A stretch of 64,000 bases of DNA from Pseudonocardiaceae bacterium (GTDB lineage: Bacteria; Actinomycetota; Actinomycetes; Mycobacteriales; Pseudonocardiaceae), in assembly GCA_050700055.1 (NCBI GenBank), contig JBOHGE010000020.1, positions 11,770 through 75,769 of the forward strand. Direction: 5' to 3'. The stretch's first letter is position 1; every line of letters starts with the position of its first letter. The notes under the pieces were generated by a model. That model did no database searches, had not been told where the DNA came from, and worked only from the letters and a program-made list of their open reading frames with translations. Position numbers and translations under genes: made by a program. This document shows, one piece after another, positions 1 through 51,483 of the stretch.

Positions 1-11
1 ATCGTGCGCTG

Positions 12-437
12 GTGCGGCAGGTCTTGCGCCCCCGCTACGACGCCGCGCCAATAGTGCAAGAATCCTTCTTCACGCGTGCAGCGGCACTGGAGGGGCTCGA
101 CAAAGAGCAACACTGCGACGACATTCATCTGGCAAAACGTTATTTACGACTCGCTGAGAATGTGGCGCAACATTTCGAGACTTTGGTTGGACAAGAGGAT
201 GCCGCCAAGCGATGGTGTAAGCGCATGGTGGAGCTTCGCAACAACATCGGCCACGGCGATCCTGTGCCGCTGCATCAAAGCGCAGCCGAGCTGTTTGAGA
301 TGTCCGAGAGTGCCTACTGGCTGTTTGTCCTGAACCTGCTGGTCGAGGCCGAGGCGCCGCACGCGGCATACAACCATATAATCACCATGACACAACGGTT
401 CCTCTTCTTGAGCAAGCAAGTCGGTCAGCATTACTGA
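12..437 (+). CDS. HEPN-like domain protein, C-terminal part (frame stays open to window start)
   Basis: Translation contains an Rx4H motif (MVELRNNIGHG) in a helical context, as in HEPN RNase families. There is no stop between nt 3 and 12, so the gene may start before the window. The region is visibly AT-richer than the rest. Confidence 0.45.
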   Translation: MRQVLRPRYDAAPIVQESFFTRAAALEGLDKEQHCDDIHLAKRYLRLAENVAQHFETLVGQEDAAKRWCKRMVELRNNIGHGDPVPLHQSAAELFEMSESAYWLFVLNLLVEAEAPHAAYNHIITMTQRFLFLSKQVGQHY

Positions 438-1520: not shown

Positions 1521-1739
1521 ATGAGCGCGCAGCTGAGTGTCACCGTTGTGGTCAGCCGGGAGGGCGATCGCTTCGTCGCGCAGTGCCTCGAGGTCGACAT
1601 GTCCAGCTTCGGCGACACGCAAGCAGAGGCACTGGCGATGGTGACCGAGGCTCTGGAACTGTGGTTCGAGGACGCCCCTGTACCCGATCACTTCAGCCGG
1701 CCGGTGGTCACCACGGTCGATCTGCACCTCTCTGCATGA
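1521..1739 (+). CDS. hicB: HicB-family antitoxin
   Basis: MSAQLSVTVVVSREGDRFVAQCLEVDMSSFGDTQAEALAMVTEALELWFE matches the HicB/UPF0150 pattern. A purine-rich stretch lies upstream. The stop overlaps the hicA ATG (ATGA). Confidence 0.75.
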   Translation: MSAQLSVTVVVSREGDRFVAQCLEVDMSSFGDTQAEALAMVTEALELWFEDAPVPDHFSRPVVTTVDLHLSA

Positions 1740-1962
1740 GCCGGTCGCTTCCTGCCGTCACGGGCCGGGAGGTACTCAAGGCGCTGGTTGGCGTTGGGTT
1801 CGTCCACCTCTCGACCAAGGCTCCCACGCCAAAGTCGCGCATCCGGACGGACGCGTGGCGGTGGTGCCGATGCATGGTGGCCGAGACCTCCCACGGGGCA
1901 CACTGGGCTCGATTCTTCGTCAAACGAGGCTCACCATCGCGGAGTTCCGGGAACTCCTGTGA
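1736..1962 (+). pseudogene. hicA: HicA-family toxin, interrupted by a 1-nt frameshift
   Basis: The N-terminus LPAVTGREVLKALVGVGFVHLSTK reads in one frame. The rest, SHAKVAHPDGRVAVVPMHGGRDLPRGTLGSILRQTRLTIAEFRELL*, is readable only after a -1 shift at the short G run at 1819-1820 (accaagg|ctcccac). Restoring one G gives a 75-aa HicA. Confidence 0.7.
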
Positions 1963-2007
1963 GATCGGGAACTCGGGACTCGTCTACGCCAGCTCCGGAC
2001 GGACCGG

Positions 2008-2446
2008 TCACACCTCCGGCCCAGCGGTAGCGCAAATCTTGGTGCATGAAGAGAAATACCTGTCGGCGGCTGCCACCTCCCGACCGTGCGCCAGCGCCTT
2101 CGGCGTCGTGACGTTTTGCAGGTCGCGTCGGGTGAAATCAGGTGTCAACACGAACCACGCCACGATGCTGCCGCCCGGGAACGTCAGCGACATCAGGTCG
2201 ACATCGCCGGTTCTGCCTACCGCGGCGGCAAGTGGCCACCACCCCGGGTGCTCGGCCCGCACCGATGGTGATCACATCGACAGGTATGCCCAGAAAGACC
2301 GTTTCGAAAGGCACTAGGATCTCGTCCCCGAGCACTGTGCAGAAGGCCATCATGCACTCGTCTTTGTCGTGACAGTCCACAACGATCTCGGCGATCAGGT
2401 CATCGAGTTCCCTCACCGGATTCCTCGCTCGACCGGTTGGGATCAA
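2008..2446 (-). pseudogene. conserved actinobacterial small protein (family often annotated 'calcium-binding'), apparently frameshifted
   Basis: ORF 2138-2446 gives LIAEIVVDCHDKDECMMAFCTVLGDEILVPFETVFLGIPV...VVATCRRGRQ. The expected continuation (TGDVDLMSLTFPGGSIVAWF...) lies in ORF 2008-2262, one frame off, with the switch near 2225-2240. Confidence 0.4.
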
Positions 2447-3198
2447 GCTCTCCGGGTGGCCAGGTCGGTCTCAATCTCCTGGGCCGCGGCGGTCGCGCTA
2501 AGCAGGCCGCCGTGGTCATCGAGGGCGCGGACCTCCCCGAGGGCGCGCTGTTCCGGCCGTTGGACAACGCTCTGATGATTCCCGGCAGCTTCAACGGTGA
2601 GCGCATCTACTTCGTGGCCGGCGAGCCCGTCCCGCCGCCACCAGCGACTGCACGCGGTCCGGTCGCTCCAACCGAGGCTCTGCCCCCGACGCTGAGCTCA
2701 GAGTTGAACCGGGCGGGCTCGTTCAGCGGCCATCCGCTCGCCGCTGGCGGCACCAGCGCGGTGCTCGTCCTAGCCCTCGACACCGGCATCTACGTGCTTA
2801 CCCGCGGGGAGATGCCACCACCTGAACATGTGCTCCACGCCGCGGAGTCGGGTGGCGTGGCTGGCGCAGTCGCCGAGCAGGCAGCCGCGGGCGCTGACCC
2901 AAGCGCTCGGACAGGGTTCGGGGCGGCTTGTTGTCGTCCTTGGAGCGGGGCCGCTGGAGGTGTCGGTGGCGCCGTTGCCGGTCCCCTCGTCGAGACCATG
3001 ATGCTCGCCTTGGACGACCGACAACATACCCGCGGAGAATACGCCAGCGCCGCAGGCCGTGGCGCTGTTGCCGGCGCGGCCGGCGGCTTAGTCGGTGCCG
3101 CCCTCACCGGCGCGCTCGCCGGGTCCGTCGCGCCGGGCGTCGGCACCGCAATCGGCTTCGTGGCGAGCCCGGCCAGCGGCGGGTCACGCGCTCGCTAG
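2437..3198 (+). CDS. hypothetical protein with Gly/Ala-rich (glycine-zipper-like) C-terminus
   Basis: 253-aa ORF. The C-terminal GAVAGAAGGLVGAALTGALAGSVAPGVGTAIGFVA looks like a GxxxG membrane segment. The annotated start collides with the divergent gene, so the real start is probably further inside. Confidence 0.3.
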   Translation: MGSSSPGGQVGLNLLGRGGRAKQAAVVIEGADLPEGALFRPLDNALMIPGSFNGERIYFVAGEPVPPPPATARGPVAPTEALPPTLSSELNRAGSFSGHPLAAGGTSAVLVLALDTGIYVLTRGEMPPPEHVLHAAESGGVAGAVAEQAAAGADPSARTGFGAACCRPWSGAAGGVGGAVAGPLVETMMLALDDRQHTRGEYASAAGRGAVAGAAGGLVGAALTGALAGSVAPGVGTAIGFVASPASGGSRAR

Positions 3199-3268
3199 AT
3201 CAGCCGGCTTCCGCGGCGTTGAGCAAGCAGGAGTGGGAACCCGCCAGTGTGGTCCTTATGCTGGAGAC

Positions 3269-3568
3269 ATGACAGCGGCACACTCGTTTGAGCTACCTCC
3301 GCACAGTGGTGCCCCTGCGGAGGCGGTTGACACTGCGGTCGGTGGCCAGGTGGCGTACCTCATGCGCGATGGTCAGCCGGTCGCGGCGGTGGTCCCGGTG
3401 GATGTCGCCACCGCGGGGGCTGCCGCTGTCGAAGCACTGGAGGCTGCTGAGGACATCCGGGCTGCTCGTGCTGCGCTGGCTGACCGTACACCTCGTGTCC
3501 CGCTGTCCGAGGTTCTGGCCGAATACGCCGATGATGTCGCTGCATACCCTGACGTTGATGCGCGGTGA
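3269..3568 (+). CDS. Phd/YefM-type antitoxin
   Basis: QVAYLMRDGQPVAAVVPVDV...EALEAAEDIRAARAAL is the typical Phd/YefM N-terminal beta-strand followed by an acidic helix. The stop overlaps the start of the downstream toxin (ATGA-type overlap at 3565-3568). Confidence 0.65.
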   Translation: MTAAHSFELPPHSGAPAEAVDTAVGGQVAYLMRDGQPVAAVVPVDVATAGAAAVEALEAAEDIRAARAALADRTPRVPLSEVLAEYADDVAAYPDVDAR

Positions 3569-3833
3569 GCGATCGCTACGCAGTCGAATTCGGGCGCTCC
3601 GCGAAGAAGAATCTTGATCAGCTCGATGGCCCAATTCGTGCGCGTGTGCTGCGCAAAATGGCTGCGTTGGCGGATGATCCCCGGCCGCCTGGCGCCACTC
3701 GGCTGGTTAATGCTGATGATCTGTGGCGCATTCGGTCGGGGACTACCGCGTGGTCTACGCCATAGAAGACGACCGGCTCGTGGTGATCGTCGTTCGGGTT
3801 GCAGGACGTGGAAAGGTCTACCGCGACATCTGA
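3565..3833 (+). pseudogene. RelE/ParE-family toxin, interrupted by a 1-nt frameshift
   Basis: YAVEFGRSAKKNLDQLDGPIRARVLRKMAALADDPRPPGATRLVNADDLWRIR reads in frame 1. The conserved GDYRVVYAIEDDRLVVIVVRVAGRGKVYRDI* is readable only after a -1 shift near 3735-3737 (cgg|tcgggg). Confidence 0.7.
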
Positions 3834-3953
3834 CTCGGGGCTGCGGCCCGCAGTCCCTCAAGACAACCCCGCCCGTCGATCCACCAGCGAGCAACCGCTG
3901 CCACTCCTTTCCGTTCGACGTCGGGAGCGCGCCGGCACCCCATGCCACACCCA

Positions 3954-4077
3954 TGACACGGCTTGTGACACGACCCAGGGTCATCTAACTCGCATGACGC
4001 GACAGCTGCGTACTTCGGACACACCATAGTCGCAGGTAGACCACATAGTAGGCGGCGTCGAAGCTCTTCCTAAACCG
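3954..4077 (+). repeat. copy B of the imperfect ~125-bp direct repeat (partner at 1200-1324)
   Basis: tgacacggcttgtgacacgaccc...tgacgcgacagctgcg...caggtagaccacatagtaggcggcgtcgaagctcttcctaaaccg is colinear with copy A. Similarity stops where copy A continues into the tRNA-like T-arm. Confidence 0.6.
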
Positions 4078-4235
4078 CCCAATACTGACGTACGATTTTG
4101 CGACGTCCAGCAAGATCGCGTCATGGCGGACAGGTAGGGACATCCGCGCCGCACCCGACGTTATAAGGTGGGTACTACCCACTTGCCTACTTTGCCACAA
4201 GGGTGCAGACTGCTCAGCGAAGAAAAGAGGTCGCC

Positions 4236-4544
4236 ATGTCCGCCATGCCAGAAGGACCGCCCGTCCCCTTCGAGGTCATTACCGAAACCGAGGTAGACAG
4301 CCGCGGCAGAGTCAGCCTGGGTCGCGCCGGCGCCGAGCCAGGAGGGCGCTACCGGGTGGCCCGCAACATCGACGGCGTGCTGCTGCTCACTCCTGTGGTC
4401 TCCATCCCCGAGCGCGAGCTGATCGTCTGGGAGAAGCCTGCGCTGGCCGAGCGCATCCGCATCGGGGTTGCCGAGACCCAAACCGGACGCACCATCGATC
4501 TAGGTGACTTCACTGGTTACGCTAGCAGCACCGATGACGAGTAG
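4236..4544 (+). CDS. AbrB/MazE/SpoVT-type antitoxin
   Basis: EVDSRGRVSLGRAGAEPGGRYRVARNIDGVLLLTP is the swapped-hairpin AbrB-like motif. aaaagagg lies upstream of ATG 4236. Confidence 0.6.
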   Translation: MSAMPEGPPVPFEVITETEVDSRGRVSLGRAGAEPGGRYRVARNIDGVLLLTPVVSIPERELIVWEKPALAERIRIGVAETQTGRTIDLGDFTGYASSTDDE

Positions 4545-4548
4545 CCGG

Positions 4549-4868
4549 ATGGGCTTTTATCAGCTACGTTTTGCCACCCCGGCCCGGGAAACACTGGACT
4601 TACTTGATGACAGTCCCCAGTACGCGGCCAAACTGCGTAAGGTGCGCCGCGCCCTGGGTTGCTGCAAATCAACCCCCGTCACCCAGGGTTACACTCGCAT
4701 CAGTACGAGAATTTCCCCGGCGCCCCGAAGGCGAAGGTGTGGGACTCCTATGTGGAAAATCGCACGCCCGGGGCGTGGCGGATTTGGTGGATGTACGGGC
4801 CGGATGAGATCCGCGATAATCAAACCGTCGCGGTAATCACCGTGCTCGACATCGGCCCTCACCCCTGA
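4549..4868 (+). pseudogene. putative toxin partner (RelE/ParE-superfamily-like, tentative), interrupted by a 1-nt frameshift
   Basis: MGFYQLRFATPARETLDLLDDSPQYAAKLRKVRRALG continues sensibly only in ORF 4659-4868 (LLQINPRHPGLHSHQYENFPG...AWRIWWMYGPD...VITVLDIGPHP*). The shift is near 4656-4660 (ctggg|ttgctg). Confidence 0.55.
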
Positions 4869-5230
4869 TCCTTCGCGGAGCGATCTTGAGTAGGTTCGGA
4901 AATTTTGACAGCACACATCTTCGCGCTAGCCAAAGAATGATCTCGGTTGCGCAAGCCGCTCCGAGTCAGAACTCCGAGCGGCTGACCAGCCCAATGCTCG
5001 AATCGTCTCCATTCCTGACTCATTCGCATCCGTTCGCGAGCATCTGCCACTACCACATGGTTTTTCTGGCGCAGTTCAAGGACAATGGCGACTGAACACG
5101 TCTGCAACACCGGATCCTGAAAATCGGAAAAGCAACGGTTCGAACCCACCCTGGTCACCGCCGCCGCAGCGACGATGCGGCCAGCGGTAGTCGGCGTGGT
5201 GCGGATCGTGGTGCGAAATGCACGTGAAGC

Positions 5231-5527
5231 ATGCCTCAGAACAGTCTTGGTGCGACATTGGACGAACTGTAGTTACGCTTTTACCTGCAACTGCTCACCG
5301 AACACGGCAGCACCTTGGCCATGCCGTACGCCCGCAGCCTCGGGAACGGCCTACGCGAATTACTGTTTCATCTTCGCGATGAGCAACGACACATCACCTT
5401 CTGGATAGCATCCGACCGACGGATCATGCTACTCACGACGTTCCGAAAACAGCGCCAAAACGAACGTCACGAAGTCGAGCGCGCCCACGATGTTCTCAAA
5501 CAAGCGCAACAGGAGTTCCACAGATGA
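5231..5527 (+). pseudogene. HigB/Gp49-like (RelE superfamily) toxin, N-terminally degraded with an in-frame TAG
   Basis: RFYLQLLTEHGSTLAMPYARSLGNGLRELLFHLRDEQRHITFWIASDRRIMLLTTFRKQRQNERHEVERA matches the Gp49/HigB core. An in-frame TAG sits at 5270-5272 and the usual ~40-aa N-terminus is missing. Confidence 0.5.
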
Positions 5528-5850
5528 ACAGTCGACGAGACATAGAAGAAATCTACACCACACGAGACGACGCAGACGCTGACGAGTTTCACGACGCTTA
5601 TGAGGAAACCCGCCGTTCCTACGAATTCGGCGTACTTACCCACACGCTCCGCAAGGCCGCTGGTCTCACGCAGAAAGAACTCGCTACGCGCATGGGCACC
5701 ACCGCCTCAGCCATCGCTCGACTGGAAGCAGGAGGCACCTCCCCAACTTTTGCCACCCTCGAGCGTCTCGCGGACGCGCTTGGCGTGCAGCTGCGTCTGG
5801 AGGTAGCCGACGCCACCGACCTCCCCGCCGTGACCTTCGGTGCCGCCTGA
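5524..5850 (+). CDS. XRE-family HTH antitoxin (HigA-like)
   Basis: LRKAAGLTQKELATRMGTTASAIARLEAGGTSPTFATLERLADALGVQL is a classic XRE/Cro HTH. The start overlaps the stop of the upstream toxin remnant. Confidence 0.7.
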   Translation: MNSRRDIEEIYTTRDDADADEFHDAYEETRRSYEFGVLTHTLRKAAGLTQKELATRMGTTASAIARLEAGGTSPTFATLERLADALGVQLRLEVADATDLPAVTFGAA

Positions 5851-6373: not shown

Positions 6374-7654
6374 CTACGTGGCGGTGGCGAGTTCCCTCGG
6401 GGTGGGCGGAGTGGCCGGCATCTGCGCAGACGTACGGTAGATGTGCTGCTCGTAGTCGACAATCGACCACCGACCGACGCCGTGCACCCGAGTGTTCTTG
6501 GTCATGGTGGGATCGGCCTTCCTGACCCGCCTCCCATTCTCGACCAAGCGGACGTCGTTGGGATCCGGGTTCTGCATGAGATCCCTGCCCCTGCTCCGGC
6601 TGACGCCCTGCTCGCCGCTGCCCTGGTTGCCGCCGATCGTGACCAGGAACCGCCCGTCGAACGCGACCGCTGTGGTGATGTGATCCGGGTCGGTGCCATA
6701 GGCGTTGTCGATCAACACAAGGTCGCCCGGCTCGATACCCCGCGACGGGGGTGCCTTACGGATCGCCTCGTACCATCTGGTCGATCCCCGGCTTCCGTGG
6801 TACTCCCGCAACCGGACCCAGTGGTCGAAGGCCCAGATCCACGGGTCGGCCGCCACCCCCTGGTACGCCAGTGCGCCGCGAATCCCGCCTTCGCCCTGGC
6901 TCAGCGCGGCCCAGCGCGAGTCCATTCCAGATGCCTGGTGCTGTTGGGTGAAAGCAAAGGCACCACACCAGGCGTCGTTCCCGGGCAGCCGTCCGATGTC
7001 CCGCGCCTCCCGCTCGGCGTCGGCCCGGTGGCCGATCTTGCTCAGCGCCTCACGGGACGCCCGCAGCCGAAGCGCGGCGAAGACGTTCTGCTGGACGGTC
7101 TGGTTGAAATGCTCATACCGGAACTGCGGGTCGCCCTCCATCAGCACGTCCAGCCGGCCTTCAAGATCGGTGCTCAGCTGCGTCTGGGCCTGCTCGACAT
7201 CCCCGGTGTGGTCGGTGCCGTCCGACGCCTGGCCGCCGGTTGGTCGGCTGCGGACGTACAGGTCGGACACTTGGTCCATCATGGTGTGACGGATATCCGC
7301 CAGCGCACCCCGCAGGTCGGCCGACGGCGCAAGCTGATCCTCCGCGAGCCGGCGTCGAAAACGCTGATTGAGCACCTTGAGAGCGTTGAGGTCGCCGCCG
7401 GCCAACGCAGCGCGGGCCTCCTCCAGCGGGTTCGTCACGTCGCGCTGGATGACGGCGGTTACCGACGCTGAATTGGGCTGGGCGACCAGCATGCGCCCGA
7501 CAGCGCGATTGCCCACCGACCGCTGAGCGTTGAGGACTACCGCTGGTGACCAAGCCGTAACGGCCATATGAACAACGCGGCCCGCAACTCTGTTCGTGCT
7601 GGTCGCCGTCGAACCAGTGGATGCGACGCGCGGCGCGCCGGTCCGGTACCGCAT
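6374..7654 (-). CDS. CHAP/NlpC-P60-like amidase-domain protein with GNRAV-type N-terminal leader
   Basis: The C-terminal half has NDAWCGAFAF (Cys), GDLVLIDN..GTDPDHITTAV (His) and TIGGNQG, which is the CHAP pattern. The N-terminus has LNAQRSVGNRAVGRML...VIQRD. No signal peptide seen. Alternative start at ATG 7567. Confidence 0.65.
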   Translation of the reverse strand: MRYRTGAPRVASTGSTATSTNRVAGRVVHMAVTAWSPAVVLNAQRSVGNRAVGRMLVAQPNSASVTAVIQRDVTNPLEEARAALAGGDLNALKVLNQRFRRRLAEDQLAPSADLRGALADIRHTMMDQVSDLYVRSRPTGGQASDGTDHTGDVEQAQTQLSTDLEGRLDVLMEGDPQFRYEHFNQTVQQNVFAALRLRASREALSKIGHRADAEREARDIGRLPGNDAWCGAFAFTQQHQASGMDSRWAALSQGEGGIRGALAYQGVAADPWIWAFDHWVRLREYHGSRGSTRWYEAIRKAPPSRGIEPGDLVLIDNAYGTDPDHITTAVAFDGRFLVTIGGNQGSGEQGVSRSRGRDLMQNPDPNDVRLVENGRRVRKADPTMTKNTRVHGVGRWSIVDYEQHIYRTSAQMPATPPTPRELATAT

Positions 7655-7795: not shown

Positions 7796-9229
7796 CTATT
7801 TCTTCTTGACGCGTGGAACGCCACCCTTGCGCCCGATGTCAAATGCGATGCGGTAGACATCCGGCAGATCCAGCTTCTTGTTGGTGCGGATGGTCATGAC
7901 CCCAAGGTCGATCAGCTCTGCGATGAGGCCTTCGTAGCTGGTGTTGAGCGGGCCGGTAGCGAACGGCTCCTGGTCTTCGGAATCGCCGTGAGGCAGCTCG
8001 CTGGTCTTCGACCGCTGTGTCGACAACTCAGTACTCAAGTCGACTTCTTTCCACCGCCGAATGACCTCGTCCTTCTCGATGGGGACCTGGGTGCCACGCA
8101 GTGGGCCGATCGCGTCGGACACCCAAGGCGTGTCCTCCTGGACCTCCTGCACGCGGATCTGGGAGGCACGTTGCACTCCTTGACGAATCGCGTCCCAGTG
8201 CAGTGCGTAAGTATGACCAGAGAAGCCTTCTTCGGTCCGTTGGGTCGCACGCCACAGTGCGCTCAGGAAACTTCGCGGGCTCACCTGTTGCCTGCCGTCG
8301 GCTAGGTGGTTAGGCAACCAGGTGTAGGTGAAACCCTTGCGGTGGTCGGTCCCCATGTACTTGCTGGCGATGAGTTCGAGGATGGCTCGCTGCTTGGTCT
8401 CGTCGCCACTGAAACTATCTGTCCAACCGGTCTCTGACGTGAACCTGTTGCTGTGTTCCGAGTCGGCGCCGCTCATGTAGTGGAACAGCAGCGCGTACAG
8501 GCTCCTCTCCGTCCAGCGCAGGTCGGTCATATTGGCGATCAACTTCGACGCGTCGGCGAAGTCGAGCCCGACGGTGTCGAACATGTCGTACCGGATGAAC
8601 AGCTTCACTCGCAGGTTTCGGGTGCTCGTGCGCAGGTTAAGGGCCAGCTCGAAGATTCCCCTCGCGAGCTGGTCCGCGATCCGGCGATCGCTGTGCAGGC
8701 GGTCCATCGCGTCGAACAAGAGTAGTGTGATCCGGTCGTCTCGGCCCGCCTGCTCGTCCACGGCCAGGATCGCGTCGTCGACCTTGCCGGGGTTGTCGAC
8801 AACCCATTGCACCCGATCCGGCCAGTCCTCGACCGCCACCAACTCTGCAATGCCGAATCCGAACAGTGCCACGGCGGTCCAGATGTCCGACGGCCGGAAC
8901 GTGTCCACCAGGGAGTGCAGCCTGCGGGGGTTGGGGTACTGCTTGCTCAGCTTTGCGCCGAAGCCCGCCAGGGTGTCGACGCGGTTCAACCGGTCCAGTT
9001 GGTAGGACTTCGCGGCGATCTCACGGAGTGAGTCATCTTGCAGTGCTGTGAACCACACGGTCTTACCGGCACCACGCCCACCGCGGACGATTGTCGTGTC
9101 AGGGTCGAGTGCGTTGCGGTGACCCGATGGGGTGAACAATGTCTTTGGATCAGGATCGAAGGTGTCCGCGTCGACGACCGCGGGCAGCGCCGCGCCGAGC
9201 AGTTCCCGGTATTCAACGGCCGTCAGCAT
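7796..9229 (-). CDS. P-loop NTPase of unknown function (third gene of the operon)
   Basis: Walker A is IVRGGRGAGKTVWF and Walker B is ITLLLFDAMD, followed by a ~330-aa uncharacterised C-terminal region. ATG 9229 lies 1 nt after the upstream stop (TGAtATG). Confidence 0.8.
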   Translation of the reverse strand: MLTAVEYRELLGAALPAVVDADTFDPDPKTLFTPSGHRNALDPDTTIVRGGRGAGKTVWFTALQDDSLREIAAKSYQLDRLNRVDTLAGFGAKLSKQYPNPRRLHSLVDTFRPSDIWTAVALFGFGIAELVAVEDWPDRVQWVVDNPGKVDDAILAVDEQAGRDDRITLLLFDAMDRLHSDRRIADQLARGIFELALNLRTSTRNLRVKLFIRYDMFDTVGLDFADASKLIANMTDLRWTERSLYALLFHYMSGADSEHSNRFTSETGWTDSFSGDETKQRAILELIASKYMGTDHRKGFTYTWLPNHLADGRQQVSPRSFLSALWRATQRTEEGFSGHTYALHWDAIRQGVQRASQIRVQEVQEDTPWVSDAIGPLRGTQVPIEKDEVIRRWKEVDLSTELSTQRSKTSELPHGDSEDQEPFATGPLNTSYEGLIAELIDLGVMTIRTNKKLDLPDVYRIAFDIGRKGGVPRVKKK

Positions 9230-9230
9230 A

Positions 9231-10547
9231 TCAGGCACCCTCCTCGAGCATGGCCGAGACCGTGTCGACAAATTCCCGGTACGCCGCTTCAACCAGGTCT
9301 GTGCTCATCCAGGAGTTGTTGCGGCTCGGGTCGAGGCCGACAAGGTCCAAGCTATGGGAGATGGACAGCGGGTAGTGGGGGGCTGACGGGTCATCTGGGG
9401 CGAAGTTGAATATCTCCAGTTCCGCAACACCCTCTTCGTTGTCGTAGAGCGTGGCGGCGAAGCATTCCTGGGAGTTGTCGGCGAAGCTGCGCAGGTATAC
9501 CTCAGCCTGGTTCGACGGGACCATAGCGGCGATCATCTTGATCCGGTTCCTGATGCGGTCCCGGGTCTCGGCGTCCAGCCTGGTCCGCCACTGGTCGAAC
9601 AGCGCTCGGTATCCCTGCCAGGTCTGCGGGTTGTCGGTCGCGAACAGCAGAGCCAGGGTGCTCAGCTGGGTGATGGCCACCGCGGCCACATCATGGATAC
9701 CCGCCCGGCTGTCCAGCAGGACGACGTCCGGTTGCCTGCTCCGCCTGGCGACTTGAGCTTCGCAGGCGGCGATGGCGTCGGCGAGCCTGCGGCCGAAAGT
9801 CACCGTTTCACCGCCCGGCGTAGGCGGCAGGTCGAAGTAGACACGGTTGAGCTTGTCAAGGTAGGAGTAGCCATCCCGCGGTCGCCCGCCCGCCGAGGCC
9901 AGCCACACCTCGCCGTTACCGTGCAGCTCACCGATGGAATCACTCCTCATGACCAGGTCGAGGTCGGCCTGGTTCCCGACTGCCGACTCGACCAGGTGAT
10001 CCACGATGCCATGGTCGGCGTACTGGAGGTCGGCATGGAGCAGCGAACTGACGCCCGGGGACTCCAGGTCAAGGTCGACCACCAGGACTGACTTGCCCTG
10101 GCGGGCCAGGTGACGCGCCAGGATGAAGGTGGCCGTGGAGCGGCCGACACCGCCCTTGAAGCCATACAGGGCCACCCGCCTGCCCGTCGGTTCCTGGGCA
10201 GGTCTGAGCCAGTCGGCCCCGACCGTGCCGCGCTCGATGACGCTCACGCGCCCGGAGTCGGCGATGAAGCTTGGGACCAGGTGCCGATCCGGCGATTCGA
10301 GGATCTGATCTGGTGCGAAAAGTGTGCTGACCACCAGGACGGGCTGCTGACCGACGAAAGGGCCACATGAGGCGTGTAGGCGTTCCTGCAGGCCCGGGAT
10401 CCTCGGGTCGTCGTCGGGGAGGTCGACCACCATCGACGACCGGCCGAGCAGGTCTCGGATGACGGTCACGTCGGTGTCGAGGTCCTGGGCGGCTGTGTTG
10501 GCGATCTTCAGCGCGCCACGCCACGCTTCGTCGAAGCGGATGGTCAC
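9231..10547 (-). CDS. ParA/MinD-like ATPase with variant Walker A KGGVGR
   Basis: RVALYGFKGGVGRSTATFILARHLA is a deviant Walker A with Arg in place of the P-loop Lys. Also present: VLVVDLDLESPG (A' box) and VVLLDSRAGIHD (Walker B). A ~110-aa N-terminal domain is unassigned. The GTG start at 10547 overlaps the upstream stop (GTGA). The Arg/Pro-rich upstream extension of the ORF was rejected. Confidence 0.8.
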   Translation of the reverse strand: MTIRFDEAWRGALKIANTAAQDLDTDVTVIRDLLGRSSMVVDLPDDDPRIPGLQERLHASCGPFVGQQPVLVVSTLFAPDQILESPDRHLVPSFIADSGRVSVIERGTVGADWLRPAQEPTGRRVALYGFKGGVGRSTATFILARHLARQGKSVLVVDLDLESPGVSSLLHADLQYADHGIVDHLVESAVGNQADLDLVMRSDSIGELHGNGEVWLASAGGRPRDGYSYLDKLNRVYFDLPPTPGGETVTFGRRLADAIAACEAQVARRSRQPDVVLLDSRAGIHDVAAVAITQLSTLALLFATDNPQTWQGYRALFDQWRTRLDAETRDRIRNRIKMIAAMVPSNQAEVYLRSFADNSQECFAATLYDNEEGVAELEIFNFAPDDPSAPHYPLSISHSLDLVGLDPSRNNSWMSTDLVEAAYREFVDTVSAMLEEGA

Positions 10548-10783
10548 GTCAGCATCCCGTCGAGGTGCGCCCGTTCGAGGATCCCGACCACGGTCCGCGC
10601 GGCGGAGATGTGGTTCTTGATTGCCTTGCCGGTGTCCGGATGCACGACGAGGTCGTCCTGGTTGACGTGACCCCCGAGGAAGCCCGCGATCAGGGCCTTG
10701 AGCGCGCACTCGGCGGCCATCCCCGCGAGGTGGTCCGCGTTGGCGGGCCGGGAGTGCGCGTGCAGCAGTTCCGTGTCGGCCAT
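10544..10783 (-). CDS. small helical protein, HEPN-like N-terminal helices, no Rx4-6H motif (first gene of the operon)
   Basis: MADTELLHAHSRPANADHLAGMAAECALKALIAGFLGG resembles the first helices of HEPN domains (A.E.ALKA). It is only 79 aa from ATG 10783. It is translationally coupled to the next gene. Confidence 0.5.
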   Translation of the reverse strand: MADTELLHAHSRPANADHLAGMAAECALKALIAGFLGGHVNQDDLVVHPDTGKAIKNHISAARTVVGILERAHLDGMLT

Positions 10784-11029
10784 GTGGCGTTTGGCCGAGG
10801 AGCCGAAGTCGGTTCGGGGGTGGTTGACACCGCGCCAGGGTACCGGCCGGTACCACTGATAACAGGCGATGAGGCCGTGCCGGGCGCGCCGTGATGAGCG
10901 TCTCGAAGCAGCAGGCCGCGGGCGCCCCAGAGGCAAGCGCACGCCCTGCTACCGCCGACGGTCGGCCGGCGTGCCGAACAGCTCCGCGGCCAGCTAGGGA
11001 TCGAGCACGCTCCTAGCAGGATAATGCTG

Positions 11030-11117: not shown

Positions 11118-12657
11118 ATGAGAGAGAGCCGTTCGAGTGATGAGCGCGTGCGATGGCGCCTGCGTCCGGCGCTGCACGTCATGCTCGCGATCGCCGTCGC
11201 GCTCGCGCTGTCCGCCACCACAGCCGGCCCGGCATCGGGGGCGGCAGCGCCCGGGCCGAGCTACCTGATGGTGTCCGACGGCGCCGCCGCGAAAGTCCAC
11301 TTTTACCCGGTCCCCGACATGACGTTGACCGGCACGCTGACCGGGGTCAAGCTCGGCGCCACTGGATCGCTTCCCTCCGGTGCCGACCCGGCCGCCAACA
11401 ACCCTATGCACGCAGGAGCCATCGTGCTGCCCGATGGCCGCATCCTCGTCAACGACGAGAGCCAGCAGCGGACGCTGGCTATCAAGCTCGACGGTGCCGG
11501 AGTACCCAGCATCGTCAACAGCACCAGCTCGCGGCTGGGCAACGAGGCGCCCTGGGCGGCGGTCGATCCGCTCTTCCGTTACTACGCCGTCGCGTCCAAC
11601 GGGGGAGGCCCCTCGCCTGACCGCGAGATTCTCAACCTCATCGACCTCCAGACGTTCGCGAACACCCAGCTCGAGATCCCGTTGGCAGGCACGACCGAGG
11701 ACCCTGACTCCGTTGTTCGGCGGGAACCCCTTGACGCTGTTCGCGGGCGTGGGCGGCAACGAGATGCGCGCCTACAACGTCAACGCGCTGCTGCAGGGCA
11801 CCGTCACGCCCACCGGCACCTTCCCGATGGGCCCGAACAGCCACGGCGGCTTCGCATCCCCGGCCACCGGGAGGATCGGTATCACGACCGGCCCGCAACC
11901 GCCCAACCTGGGCACGGGCGCCGGCCAGACGCCGAACCCTGACAACCTGGGCATGGACGTGCTCGATGTGGCCTGTGTCCCGAGGCGATGCAGCCCGCCG
12001 TCCAGTTTCGTGTTCCCGTGCAATGGCGCGCTGTGCCCGTCGCTGAGCAACCGCACCACGGTGCCCTGGAATGCGGAGGGTCTTACCCTCGCCAAGGGCA
12101 ACCGGGTGCGGGTGATGGCCGACGGCAAGCACGTCATGACGCCGCTCAACGTGGACCTGACCCCGGGCATCGCCACCGACTGGAAGGACGTCCGCCTCGA
12201 CGCCCATGTCACCGACCTGGTGACCAAGACCCCCCGGCGGGTCAACGTCGGGACCGGAGCGACCTCGCGAGGCTTCCCGGTGTCGCAGACCTACGCCGTC
12301 GAGCCGATCATCAGGCCGAAGGTCGCGGGCGGCAAGGACCAGCTGAAGATCATCGACGTGCGTCCGGGCTCACCGACCTACTTGCAGATCGTCCGCACGG
12401 TCGACCTGGAGCAGATGACCAAGGGACCGGAGGACGGCATCGCTCCGGCCTACCCGACCTACGAGCGACGGTTCGCGGCGATCACACCGGACGGGCGCTA
12501 CGCGTTCGTCACTCGGGGTGGTGATGGAAAGATCGACATGGTGGACACCGCCACCGGTGCGGTGACCACGGTCAACGCGCCGACCTCCCTCACCGGCGGT
12601 GGTCACATCACCGCCTTCCAGGTAGGCCGCACACCGTGGGATCTGTCTGGCCGGTAG
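11118..12657 (+). pseudogene. secreted YVTN/beta-propeller repeat protein, apparent frameshift
   Basis: GAGGAG RBS followed by ATG 11118. Signal peptide LHVMLAIAVALALSATTAGPASGAAA. The sensible sequence jumps from the frame of ORF 11082 to that of ORF 11380 near 11695-11705 (…AGTTEDP | LTPLFGGNPLTLFAGVGGNEMRAY…). The C-terminus has ITPDGRYAFVTRGGDGKIDMVD. Confidence 0.6.
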
Positions 12658-12684
12658 CACCATAATCGAGAAGGCGCTGGCCTT

Positions 12685-12714
12685 GGCCTCCCGGACCCCG
12701 GCGTCCGGGAGGCC
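12685..12714 (+). terminator. 12-bp perfect GC-rich hairpin downstream of the propeller gene
   Basis: ggcctcccggac-cccggc-gtccgggaggcc lies 28 nt after the stop at 12657. No U-tract follows. Confidence 0.5.
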
Positions 12715-12803
12715 GAGCGGCGTTTGTGCAATGCCGGCGGCCCGGGCACCGTCGCGCGCTCGTCGAGCCGTACGCTGCGGGGCCGGACCAGATCTGGGAG
12801 CGC

Positions 12804-13934
12804 GTGCTTGTGGCAAGCGACGACGAACGCATCGCCCTGTTCCTCGACTACGAGAACCTCGCGATCGGAGCGCGCGACGGGCTGGGGGTCGCCCCCTTCG
12901 ACTTCGGCCCGGTGGCCGACGCGCTCGCCGAGCGGGGGCGGGTGGTGGTGCGCCGGGCCTACGCCGACTGGTCGTATTTCGACGCCGACCGCCGGCTGCT
13001 CGCCCGGGCGCAGGTCGAGCTCATCGAGATCCCCCAGCGCATCGGTGGATCACGGAAGAATGCGGCTGACATCAAGATGGCTGTCGATGCCATCGAGCTC
13101 GCCTACGAGCGCGGCTTCATCACGACATTCGCCATCGGTACCGGTGACTCCGACTTCACCCCGCTCGTGCACAAGCTGCGCGAGCTCGACAAACGAGTCA
13201 TCGGCATCGGCGTGCAGTCGTCGACGTCGGCGCTGTTGCCGCCCGCCTGCGACGAGTTCCTGTTCTACGACCGCCTGCCCGGCGTCGAGCCGTCCCAAGA
13301 ACCGCGGCGCGGCAGGGGGCGCGGTCGCCATTCCAGCGCTGCGTCACCCGCGACGCCGTCGGGCTCGGTCCCGATCCCCTCGGGTGCCGGCAAAGCCGAC
13401 GGGGTGGTCGCCGACGTGCCGGTCGACGAGGAGGTGACGGCGGGAGAGGAGCACGACGTCGGCCTGCTCGTCGCGCGCACCCTCGCCGGCCTGCAACACC
13501 ACGCCGACGGACCGGTGCGCGCGTCGATGCTCAAGCGGGCGATCCTGCGCAAGGACCCCACCTTCGACGAGGCCGGTCAGGGATTCCGGGGGTTCGGCGA
13601 GCTGCTCCGCCACCTCGAGAGCCGGCGTGTCGTGGAGCTGCGCCGGGGATCGGCGCAGGGCGACCCCGAGGTGACGTTCCCCGAGGGCGACTCGGCCGAC
13701 GACGACGCCTTTCGGCTGCTCGTCAGCGTCGTCCGTGAGCTGCAGGCGTCGGGTTCACCACCCCAGCTGAGCGGGCTCAAGAACCAGCTGCGCAAGCGTT
13801 TACCCGACTTCAGCGAGAAACGCTACGGCTTCAACAGCTTCCTGTCCTTCGCCAAGGCGGCCCGCGCGCGTGACCTGATCGCCATGGAGTGGGACGACGC
13901 CGGCGGCGACTACCAACTGCACGTGCCCGGCTGA
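12804..13934 (+). CDS. NYN (LabA-like PIN) domain plus OST-HTH/LOTUS domain protein
   Basis: IALFLDYENL...RAYADW...GGSRKNAADIKMAVDAIEL...FAIGTGDSDFTPLVHKLRELDKRVIGIG is the NYN signature. The C-terminus shows LOTUS-like helices (LSGLKNQLRKRLPDFSEKRYGFNSFLSFAKAA). The start is a guess (GTG 12804). Confidence 0.75.
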   Translation: MLVASDDERIALFLDYENLAIGARDGLGVAPFDFGPVADALAERGRVVVRRAYADWSYFDADRRLLARAQVELIEIPQRIGGSRKNAADIKMAVDAIELAYERGFITTFAIGTGDSDFTPLVHKLRELDKRVIGIGVQSSTSALLPPACDEFLFYDRLPGVEPSQEPRRGRGRGRHSSAASPATPSGSVPIPSGAGKADGVVADVPVDEEVTAGEEHDVGLLVARTLAGLQHHADGPVRASMLKRAILRKDPTFDEAGQGFRGFGELLRHLESRRVVELRRGSAQGDPEVTFPEGDSADDDAFRLLVSVVRELQASGSPPQLSGLKNQLRKRLPDFSEKRYGFNSFLSFAKAARARDLIAMEWDDAGGDYQLHVPG

Positions 13935-46421: not shown

Positions 46422-47048
46422 ATGACCGCCTACCGCCTTCCCGATCTGCCGTACGGTTACGACGCGCTCGAGCCGCACTTCGACTCGCGGACCATGGAGA
46501 TCCACCACGGCCAGCAGCACCGCTACTACGTCGATCGCTTGAACGCGGTACTGGCTTCTTCGGACGAGTTGCGCGCCATCGGCGAGCAGTCCATCGATGA
46601 CTTGCTGTGGAACATCGGCAAGCTCCCGGAAGGGCCTCGCAACGCAGTACGCAACTACGGGGGCGGACACGCGAACCACTCTCTGTTCTGGACGCTCCTG
46701 AGCGCGGACGGTGGCGGCGAGCCCTCCGGTCAACTCTGCGACGCTCTCGGGGAAGAGTTCGGCTCGTTCGCGGCGTTCAAGAAACGGTTCGCCGGGGTGG
46801 CCACGGCACACGTCGGCAGTGGCTGGGCGTGGATGGTCCGGACCCGCAACCGATTGGTGGTCTACAGCCTCCCCAATGAGGACTCGCCGCTCACCGCCGG
46901 AGAGACTCCCATCCTCGGGCTTGATCTATGGGAGCACGCTTACTACCTGAAGTACCTGAACGCAAGAACCGACTACGTGGACGCCTTCTGGAACGTGGTG
47001 AACTGGGAAGAAGTAAACCGGCGGTTCGAGGAGGCAGCACGGCCATAG
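46422..47048 (+). CDS. sodA: Fe/Mn superoxide dismutase
   Basis: LPDLPYGYDALEPHFDSRTMEIHHGQQH, NHSLFW and GLDLWEHAYYLKY. Confidence 0.95.
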   Translation: MTAYRLPDLPYGYDALEPHFDSRTMEIHHGQQHRYYVDRLNAVLASSDELRAIGEQSIDDLLWNIGKLPEGPRNAVRNYGGGHANHSLFWTLLSADGGGEPSGQLCDALGEEFGSFAAFKKRFAGVATAHVGSGWAWMVRTRNRLVVYSLPNEDSPLTAGETPILGLDLWEHAYYLKYLNARTDYVDAFWNVVNWEEVNRRFEEAARP

Positions 47049-47154
47049 TCCAGCTGGATTGCTGCCGATGCGCCGGCCTTCGCTTGGACAGGCCGGGCGA
47101 GGTACGGTTTCCCTACATATTCGCCGACGATGTGCCTCGAGAGGGTGCGTGAAC

Positions 47155-47478
47155 ATGAGCCAAGAGCAGGAGCCCGCAAAGCTGACCGAGGAGGGCACGG
47201 AGGCGCTTTCTGCGTTGCGCGGCATCTGGCAAGCCCAGGGGCAGAACAGCGCTGATCTCGAAGAGGCATGCGGCAACACGAAGGCGTGCAAGAGCATGGA
47301 GTCGGTCGGCTTCCAGGGCCTGACTGACGACGCCGACCACACGGCCAAGCCGAGCCCATCAGTCAGTAACAATCTTCGCTCCGCCTGGAAGACGAAACTC
47401 GAGCGCGAGGGCAAGCTGAGCACTGAAGCCGGCAGTGTGCGGGACCTCGTCTTCGGCACGACCGAGCCCAAAGAGTAG
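47155..47478 (+). CDS. hypothetical acidic protein
   Basis: ORF with plausible composition starting at MSQEQEPAKL. No motif recognised. Confidence 0.3.
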   Translation: MSQEQEPAKLTEEGTEALSALRGIWQAQGQNSADLEEACGNTKACKSMESVGFQGLTDDADHTAKPSPSVSNNLRSAWKTKLEREGKLSTEAGSVRDLVFGTTEPKE

Positions 47479-48730: not shown

Positions 48731-48757
48731 GACGCCGCACGGATCCGTCTGACCGCA

Positions 48758-49903: not shown

Positions 49904-49918
49904 GGAGGCCGAATAATC

Positions 49919-50212: not shown

Positions 50213-50278
50213 TCCTGAAACGCTGACGCAGCAGCCGCTCATGACACTAGGACACTTTATGAACATGCAGGTCGGGTC

Positions 50279-50719: not shown

Positions 50720-50733
50720 CAACATAACAACAC

Positions 50734-51176: not shown

Positions 51177-51178
51177 CT

Positions 51179-51481: not shown

Positions 51482-51483
51482 CG

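What the first reader, a model, noticed from the sequence alone, without database searches (positions are those of the whole stretch)
7796..10783. Tightly coupled three-gene operon as a candidate uncharacterised NTPase-based conflict system
Three minus-strand genes are linked by GTGA and TGAtATG junctions, which suggests fixed stoichiometry. They are a 79-aa helical protein with HEPN-like N-terminal helices, a ParA/MinD-like KGGVGR ATPase, and a second P-loop NTPase. The NTPase has a canonical Walker A (GGRGAGKT) and Walker B (LLLFDAMD) and an unassigned ~330-aa C-terminal region. The operon sits in an AT-richer island with four TA modules, an IS30 remnant, a HEPN-like ORF and a CHAP toxin-like gene, which is typical defence-island context. 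None of the three proteins carries a nuclease, TIR, SIR2, protease or pore domain that I can recognise, so the effector logic is unexplained. I cannot match this architecture to any named defence system I know. From memory, KGGVGR-variant ATPases are often annotated next to 'Sll1717-family' P-loop ATPases. That would make this a conserved but functionally unstudied pair. I cannot verify that recollection here.
Basis: partly seen in the sequence, partly recalled or inferred. Interest (0 to 1): 0.85.

Follow-up and report, generated by a model that had tools for sequence, protein, structure and literature searches.

The report
Catalogued candidate defence cassette, broken effector
This three-gene operon belongs to a widespread mobile cassette already listed, but never tested, as candidate phage-defence system PDC-M28, and this copy has lost the core of its probable RNase effector through a 156-bp in-frame deletion.

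Summary
The three coupled minus-strand genes are real. A is 10544-10783, B is 9231-10547 and C is 7796-9229. They are not unclassifiable: PADLOC-DB models PDC-M28A/B/C match them. B and C match full length (E 2e-124 and 1e-148). A matches only its first 43 residues. PDC-M28 is one of 145 untested candidates from Payne et al. 2024.

New here:
- A belongs to an AbiV-type HEPN-like family.
- C folds like ORC/Cdc6/BrxC AAA+ proteins with NACHT-like sequence signals.
- Natural B-C fusions exist.
- A-B-C is adjacent in 78 of 80 genome loci. It also occurs on proteobacterial plasmids, and as A plus a B-C fusion on a cyanobacterial plasmid.
- About 20 of 80 loci lie inside or beside BREX-2/Pgl (pglW-pglX).
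- The window's A carries an in-frame 52-codon deletion that removes the invariant W..RY core. The same allele appears in three assemblies.

Most likely this is an NTPase-controlled HEPN abortive-infection cassette that is effector-dead in this genome. It is a new member of a catalogued kind, of moderate interest.

The parts
10544..10783 (-). Gene A: truncated AbiV-type HEPN-like protein (79 aa as annotated). It matches PDC-M28A over aa 1-43 only. The ORF may start upstream at TTG 10936 or GTG 10942.
   Evidence: (P0291 = this 79-aa protein)
10604..10618 (-). Junction of the 156-bp (52-codon) in-frame deletion in A (...IKNH|ISAAR...), with short CAC-type microhomology. The deletion removes family-invariant W63, P86, W90, R95 and Y96.
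   Evidence: The same allele is present in three assemblies.
10784..10942 (-). Possible 5' extension of A. It encodes the conserved first helix of the family (TDFGSSAKRH) in frame. It also holds the putative promoter region, although no sigma-70-like site was found.
9231..10547 (-). Gene B: KGGVGR-variant ParA/MinD-class (SIMIBI) ATPase, 438 aa, full-length PDC-M28B. P-loop at 10134-10157, DLDLESPG at 10053-10082, LLDSRAG at 9699-9725. The N-terminal ~120 aa and C-terminal ~115 aa are unassigned.
7796..9229 (-). Gene C: ORC/Cdc6/BrxC-like AAA+ NTPase with NACHT/AAA_16-like sequence signals, 477 aa, full-length PDC-M28C. Walker A at 9059-9082, Walker B at 8702-8725, invariant Arg213 strand at 8585-8605, WLPNHLADG at 8294-8320, conserved C-terminal PDVYR..GRKGGVP at 7814-7864.

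Best explanation
The locus is a member of the mobile three-gene cassette that PADLOC catalogues as phage-defence candidate PDC-M28.

Shown here:
- A family: a small all-helical protein with AbiV-type HEPN features. These are an invariant Glu in helix 2, an invariant His after the helix-2/3 insert, and an invariant Arg-Tyr where the classical Rx4-6H motif sits.
- B: a ParA/MinD-fold ATPase in which the canonical P-loop Lys is replaced by Arg (KGGVGR[ST]).
- C: an ORC/Cdc6/BrxC-like AAA+ NTPase with canonical Walker A and NACHT-like signatures.
- The three genes are translationally coupled and almost always adjacent.
- B and C occur as a single fused polypeptide in some lineages.

Inferred mechanism: C, working in a complex with B, is a nucleotide-dependent sensor or switch. 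It holds the HEPN protein A inactive and releases or activates it on infection or on entry of foreign DNA. A then cleaves or sequesters RNA, giving an abortive-infection outcome.

In this window A has an in-frame 52-codon deletion that removes helix 3 and the Arg-Tyr core. This copy most likely has intact NTPases and a dead effector, so it is decaying or disarmed.
For: Family identity: PADLOC hits are B 2.3e-124 (1-435 against 1-433/438), C 1.1e-148 (4-474 against 6-479/480) and A 2e-14. The cassette order FAM_01482>>FAM_02546>>FAM_01036 is assigned as PDC-M28 with a count of 121.

Synteny: B lies directly upstream of C in 78 of 80 species-level genome loci. An A homologue lies upstream of B in all 78. 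The same triplet is on Enterobacter, Paraburkholderia, Burkholderia, Sphaerotilus and Agrobacterium plasmids. A Nostoc plasmid carries an A homologue followed by a single fused B-C gene.

Coupling of B and C: fusion proteins P0147 (935 aa) and P0229 (929 aa), and the Nostoc 890-aa 'ParA family protein'.

A as HEPN: 38 of 62 members hit Pfam HEPN_AbiV and 23 of 62 hit HEPN, and no other family recurs. The AlphaFold2 model has pLDDT 94. Its best-TM PDB neighbour is 2q00 (TM 0.57/0.62), which is a HEPN-T protein according to PMC3710099. The invariant residues E25, H58 and R95-Y96 match the AbiV/AF0298-type alternative active site described in that paper. The same paper predicts HEPN plus ParA/Soj gene pairs to be toxin-antitoxin-like modules.

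C fold: pLDDT 94.5 and pTM 0.92. Foldseek finds ORC2/Cdc6 at E 7.5e-6 to 3e-4, and BrxC at 1.6e-4. Of 86 members, 46 hit NACHT, 41 hit AAA_16 and 26 hit ORC-CDC6-like.

Conflict context: the cassette lies between pglW and pglX in at least 13 genome loci and one Streptomyces plasmid, and 2-3 kb from pglX-pglW in 4 more. It lies between pglX and DUF6079/pglZ/brxD in Sphaerotilus. It is next to hsdR in Nostoc and next to integrases in three plasmids. Its distribution is sporadic: 168 matching stretches in one genome for each of 185,579 species.

Deletion: it is exactly 156 bp relative to L006, and the 79-aa allele is found in NCBI GCA_973940655.1 and in two Logan run assemblies.
Against: No member of PDC-M28 has been tested, and I found no paper on it.

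Every single A-to-HEPN match is below Pfam's gathering score. Foldseek E-values for A are not significant (best 0.64; 1.4 for 2q00). The His of Rx4-6H is not conserved, so catalysis is unproven.

Six sampled actinobacterial chromosomal loci have no recognisable defence neighbours. Eight Pseudonocardiaceae loci share a site between sdhB and a SCO4848-family gene.

The roles assigned to B and C (sensor or antitoxin) are inference only. I could not model B or the complex.

A is disrupted in about 7 of 78 loci while B and C usually stay intact. This could also mean that B and C have a function that does not need A.
Confidence: 0.6

Rival explanations
1. The cassette is not autonomous. It is an accessory or regulatory module of BREX type 2 (Pgl), for example an extra ATPase sensor or a second-line abortive arm that only works together with PglW/X/Y/Z.
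For: About 20 of 80 genome loci are inside or beside pglW-pglX, plus two plasmid cases. C structurally resembles the BREX ATPase BrxC.
Against: About 60 of 80 loci, including the window, have no PglW or PglX within 10 kb. The cassette also occurs beside type I HsdR, beside integrases and alone among metabolic genes. It is inserted in both orientations relative to pglWX, which is typical of independent cargo in a hotspot.
Confidence: 0.12
2. It is an addiction or stability (toxin-antitoxin-like) module of mobile elements. The HEPN toxin A is neutralised by the ParA-like ATPase B, with C as co-regulator, and there is no dedicated anti-phage role.
For: HEPN plus ParA/Soj gene pairs were predicted as toxin-antitoxin modules in PMC3710099. 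Integrases sit next to the cassette on three plasmids, and toxin-antitoxin genes lie nearby. A is repeatedly lost or frameshifted.
Against: A 477-aa STAND/ORC-like NTPase is always present, and in one locus it pairs with A without B (L059). That is unusual for a plain toxin-antitoxin module and typical of sensor-effector defence systems. The BREX-2 embedding also argues against it. The two readings overlap mechanistically.
Confidence: 0.15
3. It is a DNA-partition or other housekeeping NTPase pair, a ParA-like ATPase with a DNA-binding ORC-like partner, unrelated to conflict.
For: B has the ParA/MinD fold. C aligns with ORC/Cdc6 across their full length, which in those proteins includes the winged-helix domain. 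Several chromosomal copies sit among core genes, and eight share one locus.
Against: B scores 31 bits against NCBIfam ParA_partition (cut-off 180). It carries Arg instead of the P-loop Lys in 90 of 92 homologues. No ParB-like gene accompanies it. Plasmid pOLGA3 has its own canonical ParA next to the replication gene. The distribution is sporadic. The cassette is embedded in BREX-2. It is absent from 5,426 complete E. coli genomes and from phage records.
Confidence: 0.05

Closest known systems
PADLOC phage-defence candidate PDC-M28 (Payne, Hughes, Fineran & Jackson, bioRxiv 10.1101/2024.01.29.577857)
   Same: All three proteins hit the PDC-M28A/B/C models, in the catalogued order A>>B>>C. B and C match full length.
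   Different: The window's A covers only profile positions 13-55 of 138 because of a 52-codon deletion. PDC-M28 is a prediction by 'guilt-by-embedding', not a characterised system.
AbiV / AF0298-type HEPN domains (Anantharaman et al. 2013, PMC3710099)
   Same: A small helical protein with a conserved acidic residue in helix 2, a conserved Arg at the Rx4-6H position without the His, and a conserved His N-terminal to it. Sub-threshold HEPN_AbiV hits occur in 38 of 62 family members.
   Different: No member reaches Pfam's cut-off. AbiV is a stand-alone lactococcal Abi protein, whereas A is always paired with one or two NTPases. The window copy lacks the Arg-containing half.
Predicted HEPN (MAE_18760 family) + ParA/Soj toxin-antitoxin-like gene pairs, and MNT-HEPN (HepT/MntA) modules
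   Same: A HEPN gene is coupled to a nucleotide-binding partner that is proposed to control it.
   Different: The HEPN family is different. The ATPase is the KGGVGR variant. A third ORC/NACHT-like NTPase is present. Gene order is HEPN first.
STAND/Avs-type and BrxC/PglY-type defence NTPases; archaeal ORC/Cdc6
   Same: C has Walker A and a DxxD-type Walker B, an Arg at the sensor-1 position and an overall ORC/Cdc6-like three-part architecture. Foldseek matches ORC2/Cdc6 and BrxC.
   Different: C has no long C-terminal repeat sensor and no fused effector. TM-scores are only 0.3-0.48. It has no sequence-level PDB relative. It is related to NCBIfam Sll1717 but scores below the cut-off.
ParA/MinD/Soj partition and positioning ATPases
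   Same: SIMIBI fold, signature Lys of the deviant Walker A, and DxD and DSxAG switch motifs.
   Different: The P-loop Lys is replaced by Arg. B has extra N- and C-terminal domains (438 aa). It has no ParB partner and scores far below the ParA/MinD equivalog cut-offs.

Membership tests
PADLOC PDC-M28 (candidate system) | Protein B matches a PDC-M28B HMM | tested here: met
   PDLC04559, E 2.3e-124, aa 1-435 against profile 1-433/438
PADLOC PDC-M28 (candidate system) | Protein C matches the PDC-M28C HMM | tested here: met
   PDLC04561, E 1.1e-148, aa 4-474 against profile 6-479/480
PADLOC PDC-M28 (candidate system) | Protein A matches a PDC-M28A HMM over most of its length | tested here: inconclusive
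   PDLC04558, E 2e-14, but only aa 1-43 against profile 13-55/138. The rest is deleted. PADLOC's own coverage rule could not be run.
PADLOC PDC-M28 (candidate system) | Genes adjacent, co-directional, in the order A>>B>>C | tested here: met
   cassette string in Table S8
PADLOC PDC-M28 (candidate system) | Demonstrated anti-phage activity | not testable with these tools
   The paper lists the 145 PDCs as untested. No other literature was found.
NCBIfam NF047398 KGGVGR-motif variant AAA ATPase | Score above the curated cut-off, with the KGGVGR P-loop | tested here: met
   193.1 bits against cut-off 90. KGGVGRST at aa 131-138. The motif is present in 90 of 92 homologues.
NCBIfam NF047389 P-loop ATPase, Sll1717 family | Score above the curated cut-off (75 bits) | tested here: not met
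   62.1 bits, aa 150-452 only. Still, 85 of 86 C-family members hit this model and no other (best 2.8e-24). C is a relative, not a member by NCBI's threshold.
HEPN superfamily (AbiV-like branch) | All-alpha four-helix core resembling solved HEPN domains | tested here: inconclusive
   The full-length relative P0270 models as helices with pLDDT 94. Its best-TM PDB match is the HEPN-T protein 2q00 (TM 0.57/0.62, prob 0.72), but with E = 1.4.
HEPN superfamily (AbiV-like branch) | Sequence match to HEPN profiles | tested here: inconclusive
   38 of 62 members hit HEPN_AbiV (best 9.6e-5) and 23 of 62 hit HEPN (best 6.7e-4). In the ten homologues where scores were listed, every hit was below the gathering score; per-member scores were not shown for the 62.
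HEPN superfamily (AbiV-like branch) | Rx4-6H motif, or the AbiV-type alternative (Arg kept, upstream His, acidic residue in helix 2) | tested here: met
   This holds for the family: E25, H58 and R95-Y96 are invariant in 62 sequences, and R-Y is kept in Proteobacteria. It does not hold for the window copy, where R95-Y96 are deleted.
ParA/MinD partition or positioning ATPases | Deviant Walker A KGGxxK[ST] and equivalog-level score | tested here: not met
   KGGVGR[ST] replaces the Lys. ParA_partition scores 31 bits against 180, and MinD 21 against 213.
ParA/MinD partition or positioning ATPases | ParB-like or centromere-binding partner, and placement as the replicon's par locus | tested here: not met
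   The neighbours are A and C. pOLGA3 carries a separate canonical ParA beside its replication gene.
ORC/Cdc6-type / STAND-related AAA+ NTPases | AAA+ core with Walker A and B, plus lid and C-terminal helical or winged-helix region | tested here: met
   Foldseek matches 1w5t, 1w5s, 2qby and 1fnn at E 7.5e-6 to 4e-5, prob 1.0, with alignments spanning the whole targets. Walker A G.RG.GK[ST] was found in all 92 C homologues, and the Walker B F-D pair (F172, D173) is invariant in the 86-sequence alignment. Member-wise hits: NACHT 46 of 86, ORC-CDC6-like 26 of 86.
ORC/Cdc6-type / STAND-related AAA+ NTPases | Replication-initiator role, or STAND tripartite architecture with repeat sensor and effector domain | tested here: not met
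   C is 477 aa with no repeat or effector domain. Its distribution is sporadic and accessory.
BREX type 2 (Pgl) component | Co-location with pglW/X/Y/Z | tested here: not met
   No PglW or PglX in the 64-kb window. This is met in about 20 of 80 relatives.

The most novel reading that the evidence does not exclude
PDC-M28 is a genuine, mechanistically new abortive-infection system. A minimal ORC/NACHT-like NTPase and a Lys-to-Arg 'KGGVGR' ParA-fold ATPase form one complex, fused in some lineages, that gates an AbiV-type HEPN RNase. The system has a preferred niche between pglW and pglX of actinobacterial BREX-2, where it would act as a second layer behind Pgl. The window would then show a natural 'disarmed' allele, with the effector core deleted and both NTPases intact.
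Probability: 0.3. Interest if true: 0.65.

Novelty: new member of a known kind. Interest (0 to 1): 0.4.

Why it matters
If PDC-M28 is a real defence system, it would add a new regulatory logic to HEPN-based immunity. Two different P-loop NTPases, one a ParA-fold protein with an Arg-substituted P-loop, would control a very small AbiV-like effector. It would also help explain what sits inside many Streptomyces Pgl/BREX-2 loci.

For this particular window the practical message is sobering. The family is already catalogued, so the locus is not a discovery of a new architecture. This copy is also a poor choice for cloning, because its probable effector is internally deleted. The useful outputs are:
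- the domain assignments (HEPN-like A, ORC/NACHT-like C);
- the B-C fusions and the A-C variant without B;
- the high rate of BREX-2 embedding;
- a list of intact relatives better suited to experiments.

Tried and rejected
Literature. Full-text searches for 'PDC-M28', 'KGGVGR' and 'Sll1717' found nothing relevant. A broader ParA-like/HEPN/anti-phage search and the 2026 STAND survey contain nothing on this cassette.

A protein. Single-sequence Pfam and NCBIfam scans of the window A gave nothing. A profile-against-PDB sequence search gave only spurious spectrin and trichodiene-synthase hits. Foldseek of the A model against PDB and BFVD gave no significant E-values. The HEPN call therefore rests on convergent weak evidence.

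C protein. A profile-against-PDB sequence search found nothing.

B protein. Only P-loop-local similarity to Mrp, Soj, NifH and MinD structures was found.

Rejected ideas.
- Plasmid partition system: pOLGA3 has its own ParA.
- Assembly artefact as the cause of the A deletion: the same allele is in three assemblies.
- Shared flanks meaning core-genome vertical inheritance: the largest shared-flank group turned out to be pglW/pglX.

Other negatives. There is no homologue in phage records or in complete E. coli genomes. My first GC3-based gene caller missed B and was replaced by a codon log-odds caller, which I checked against three reference gene calls. The promoter and terminator scan gave nothing above shuffles.


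Full report
OBSERVATION. The three minus-strand genes exist as described. A is 10544-10783 (79 aa, ATG). B is 9231-10547 (438 aa, GTG). C is 7796-9229 (477 aa, ATG). The B start codon overlaps the A stop (GTGA), and one base separates the B stop from the C start (TGAtATG). The quoted motifs are present: KGGVGRST in B at aa 131-138, and GGRGAGKT at aa 50-57 and LLLFDAMD at aa 169-176 in C. The same overlap and spacing recur in close relatives, so the coupling is a conserved property and not a chance feature. The window is 100% identical to contigs of a Pseudonocardiaceae metagenome-assembled genome.

CLASSIFICATION. Pfam sees only the P-loop region of B (CbiA, AAA_31, ParA) and nothing in A or C. 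NCBIfam places B in NF047398, 'KGGVGR-motif variant AAA ATPase' (193 bits, cut-off 90). It relates C to NF047389, 'P-loop ATPase, Sll1717 family', at 62 bits, below the cut-off of 75. Of 86 diverse C homologues, 85 hit that model and no other.

PADLOC-DB v2 is decisive. B matches PDC-M28B at 2.3e-124 and C matches PDC-M28C at 1.1e-148, both end to end. A matches PDC-M28A at 2e-14, but only through its first 43 residues. PDC-M28 is cassette CAS_00115 (FAM_01482>>FAM_02546>>FAM_01036, count 121) in Table S8 of Payne et al. (bioRxiv 10.1101/2024.01.29.577857). It is one of 145 phage-defence candidates predicted because their genes are embedded in BREX, DISARM or type I RM systems, and the authors state these candidates are untested. 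I found no other literature on it.

CONSERVATION. C has more than 900 homologues, all annotated as hypothetical. It has 956 representatives of 50%-identity clusters at E <= 1e-3. A scan of one genome for each of 185,579 species found 168 confirmed matches with actinobacterial peptide patterns, and 80 loci were fetched. B lies directly upstream of C in 78 of 80 loci. A profile search of the upstream DNA finds an A homologue in all 78: intact in 71, frameshifted in 4 (L003, L004, L025, L029) and partial in 3.

The same triplet occurs on plasmids of Enterobacter, Paraburkholderia, Burkholderia, Sphaerotilus and Agrobacterium. For the Enterobacter and Paraburkholderia copies, hhalign confirms that the small first gene is an A homologue (prob 99%). 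There are no matches in phage records or in 5,426 complete E. coli genomes.

Rosetta-stone fusions of B and C exist: P0147 (935 aa), P0229 (929 aa), and an 890-aa 'ParA family protein' on a Nostoc plasmid that follows a distant A homologue. One Kitasatospora locus (L059) has full-length A and C with no B. One representative (P0251) fuses a C-like module to a metallophosphatase and a NACHT-like NTPase.

WHAT THE PROTEINS ARE.

A. Full-length relatives are 131-160 aa. An AlphaFold2 model of P0270, built with 62 sequences, has pLDDT 94 and is all-helical, with a short hairpin insert between helices 2 and 3. Foldseek finds no significant match. The only hit with a substantial TM-score is PDB 2q00 (TM 0.57/0.62, prob 0.72). 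Anantharaman et al. 2013 (PMC3710099) list 2q00 as a HEPN-T (Parep1/8) domain. Member-wise Pfam scans give HEPN_AbiV in 38 of 62 members (best 9.6e-5) and HEPN in 23 of 62, with no other recurrent family. Where scores were listed (ten homologues), each hit was below the gathering score.

The family's invariant residues are E25 in helix 2, H58 just after the helix-2/3 insert, and R95-Y96. The His of the classical Rx4-6H motif is not conserved. This is the pattern the HEPN paper describes for AbiV and AF0298-like domains: the Arg is kept, the His is replaced by a conserved His from the insert, and an acidic residue sits in helix 2. I rate 'A family = AbiV-type HEPN-like' at about 0.7, and 'catalytically active RNase' lower.

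B. The P-loop reads KGGVGR[ST] in 90 of 92 homologues, including the proteobacterial ones. The MinD-like DLDLESPG and LLDSRAG motifs are conserved. Sequence similarity to solved SIMIBI ATPases (Mrp/NBP35, Soj, NifH, MinD) is confined to the P-loop region. The canonical phosphate-binding Lys is replaced by Arg. What this does to nucleotide binding or hydrolysis is unknown.

C. The AlphaFold2 model (86 sequences) has pLDDT 94.5 and pTM 0.92. Foldseek returns archaeal ORC2/Cdc6 (1w5t, 1w5s, 2qby, 1fnn; E 7.5e-6 to 4e-5), eukaryotic ORC/Cdc6, the BREX ATPase BrxC (9zll, 9zdx) and TnsC. The alignments span the whole targets at TM 0.3-0.48. Member-wise Pfam hits are NACHT (46 of 86), AAA_16 (41), AAA_22 (32) and ORC-CDC6-like (26). 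The invariant columns G53/G55/K56 and F172/D173 lie in Walker A and Walker B, which have the forms G.RG.GK[ST] and hhhFDxxD. R213 at the end of the next strand is also invariant, which is a STAND-like feature.

THE WINDOW'S A IS INTERNALLY DELETED. Alignment with the closest intact relatives shows that the 79-aa protein equals the 131-aa protein minus residues 59-110. At the DNA level this is an exact 156-bp gap in otherwise nearly identical sequence, with CAC-type microhomology at the junction, at window ~10604-10618. The deletion removes helix 3, the short helices and the start of the last helix. With them go the invariant W63, P86, W90, R95 and Y96. The identical 79-aa gene is present in an NCBI assembly and in two independent Logan run assemblies, so it is not a one-off assembly error. 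B and C are full length. The conserved first helix of the family is encoded in frame upstream of the annotated ATG. The only in-frame starts there are TTG 10936 and GTG 10942, so the true 5' end may lie outside the reported interval.

CONTEXT. In the window the cassette is slightly AT-richer than its right-hand neighbours. GC is 0.641 against 0.681, and GC3 is 0.80-0.83 for B and C against 0.89-0.92. To the right lie a NYN/OST-HTH protein, a GT2/GtrA glycosyltransferase and a PMT-family protein. To the left is an islet of small ORFs. It includes a Gp49/HigB-like plus XRE pair (21.3 bits, just below the cut-off), a HicB-like ORF (sub-threshold), other pairs with no Pfam hit, and a 426-aa ORF with no hit. 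An ApeA_NTD1 protein with an RNNIGH HEPN motif is cut by the window start. The 'defence island' description is therefore only partly supported for the window.

Across the family the picture is mixed. Six sampled chromosomal loci are flanked by ordinary genes such as sdhCDAB, trpS, purNH, sucCD and sugar metabolism genes. Eight Pseudonocardiaceae loci share a site downstream of sdhB.

The largest shared-flank groups turned out to be BREX-2/Pgl. A PADLOC scan of 150 nearest neighbours from 45 non-redundant contexts hit PglW and PglX at E = 0. It also hit mad3 and mad8 (twice each), PDC-S07 (twice), MzaC, TmtA and a type IIG enzyme. tblastn then placed the cassette as follows:
- between pglW and pglX on the same strand in 10 loci, plus 2 partial cases;
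- between them in the opposite orientation in 3 loci;
- 2-3 kb from pglX-pglW in 4 loci.

Annotated plasmids show pglW-A-B-C-pglX in Streptomyces sp. NBC_01334 and pglX-A-B-C-DUF6079-pglZ-brxD in Sphaerotilus. Integrases abut the cassette in three plasmids, and hsdR abuts it in Nostoc. Plasmid pOLGA3 carries a separate canonical ParA beside its replication gene, which argues against a partition role.

MECHANISM (inference). C is an ORC/NACHT-like NTPase of the kind that acts as a switch or sensor in STAND and BREX systems. B is a dimerising ParA-fold NTPase that is physically tied to C, as the fusions show. A is the only component with a plausible effector fold. The HEPN paper had already proposed that ParA/Soj-like ATPases neutralise HEPN toxins in two-gene modules. 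I therefore favour a model in which the B-C complex holds A inactive and releases or activates it on infection, leading to RNA damage and abortive infection.

Supporting but not proving this, the A gene is the component that is recurrently disrupted (about 7 of 78 loci), as expected for a costly toxin. The alternative reading, that B and C work without A, cannot be excluded.

My confidence in each step:
- membership of the PDC-M28 family: about 0.95;
- the family is a conflict or defence system: about 0.6-0.65;
- HEPN effector gated by the NTPases: about 0.4;
- the window copy is effector-dead: about 0.7.

VERDICT. This copy carries a crippled first gene. It is a new member of a known, untested kind. 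Interest is moderate (0.4), resting on the family-level findings rather than on this locus.

Noticed in passing
window 1-437 (+), continuing beyond the window start (L081:18793-20064): The 3' end of a 423-aa gene. It has an ApeA_NTD1 domain, a C-terminal classical HEPN motif (ELRNNIGH) and a weak PADLOC PDC-S58 match (3.5e-11).
   Followed up: partly
window 6374-7654 (-): A 426-aa ORF 142 nt downstream of C on the same strand. It has Cys/His motifs reminiscent of CHAP/NlpC-P60 (NDAWCGAFAF ... DPDHITTAV) but no Pfam or PADLOC hit. It is not conserved next to the cassette in relatives.
   Followed up: partly
window 1521-5850 (+): Four small-gene pairs that look like toxin-antitoxin modules: 1521-1739/1736-2317 (HicB-like DUF7387, sub-threshold), 3362-3568 (Phd-like), 4236-4544/4549-4836, and 5321-5527/5524-5850 (Gp49/HigB-like at 21.3 bits, plus an XRE HTH). 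Only the last pair has near-threshold support.
   Followed up: partly
window 12726-13934 (+): A NYN (LabA-like) nuclease-fold protein with a faint OST-HTH hit, immediately beyond the 314-aa ORF upstream of the cassette. It has a weak PADLOC NYN hit (0.0034).
   Followed up: no
L059:9487-11452: Kitasatospora sp. NPDC001527 carries a two-gene variant: full-length A (161 aa) directly followed by C (487 aa), with no B gene.
   Followed up: partly
P0251 (1328 aa, metagenomic representative): A C-like module fused to a calcineurin-like metallophosphatase and a NACHT-like NTPase. This is a different architecture built on the same NTPase.
   Followed up: no
L003, L010, L014, L020, L021, L028, L029, L043 (site seen downstream of sdhB in L091 = L003 and in L086): Eight Pseudonocardiaceae genera or species carry the cassette at the same chromosomal site, although the cassettes belong to divergent clades (81% against about 50-56% identity to the window's C). 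This suggests an insertion hotspot. In L029, B is interrupted by about 4.3 kb.
   Followed up: partly
L035 and L036, ~11455-13888: In two Streptomyces loci about 2.4 kb of extra sequence lies between C and pglX. This may be a further embedded gene.
   Followed up: no
L009 (JANNON010000107.1): A complete A-B-C cassette with 58% identity to the window's C sits on a 4.4-kb contig binned as Blastocatellia (Acidobacteriota). It is either horizontal transfer or a binning error.
   Followed up: no
window 47000-59000: A second stretch of lower GC (0.58-0.65) with strongly negative GC skew around 52-54 kb. It may be another acquired region.
   Followed up: no
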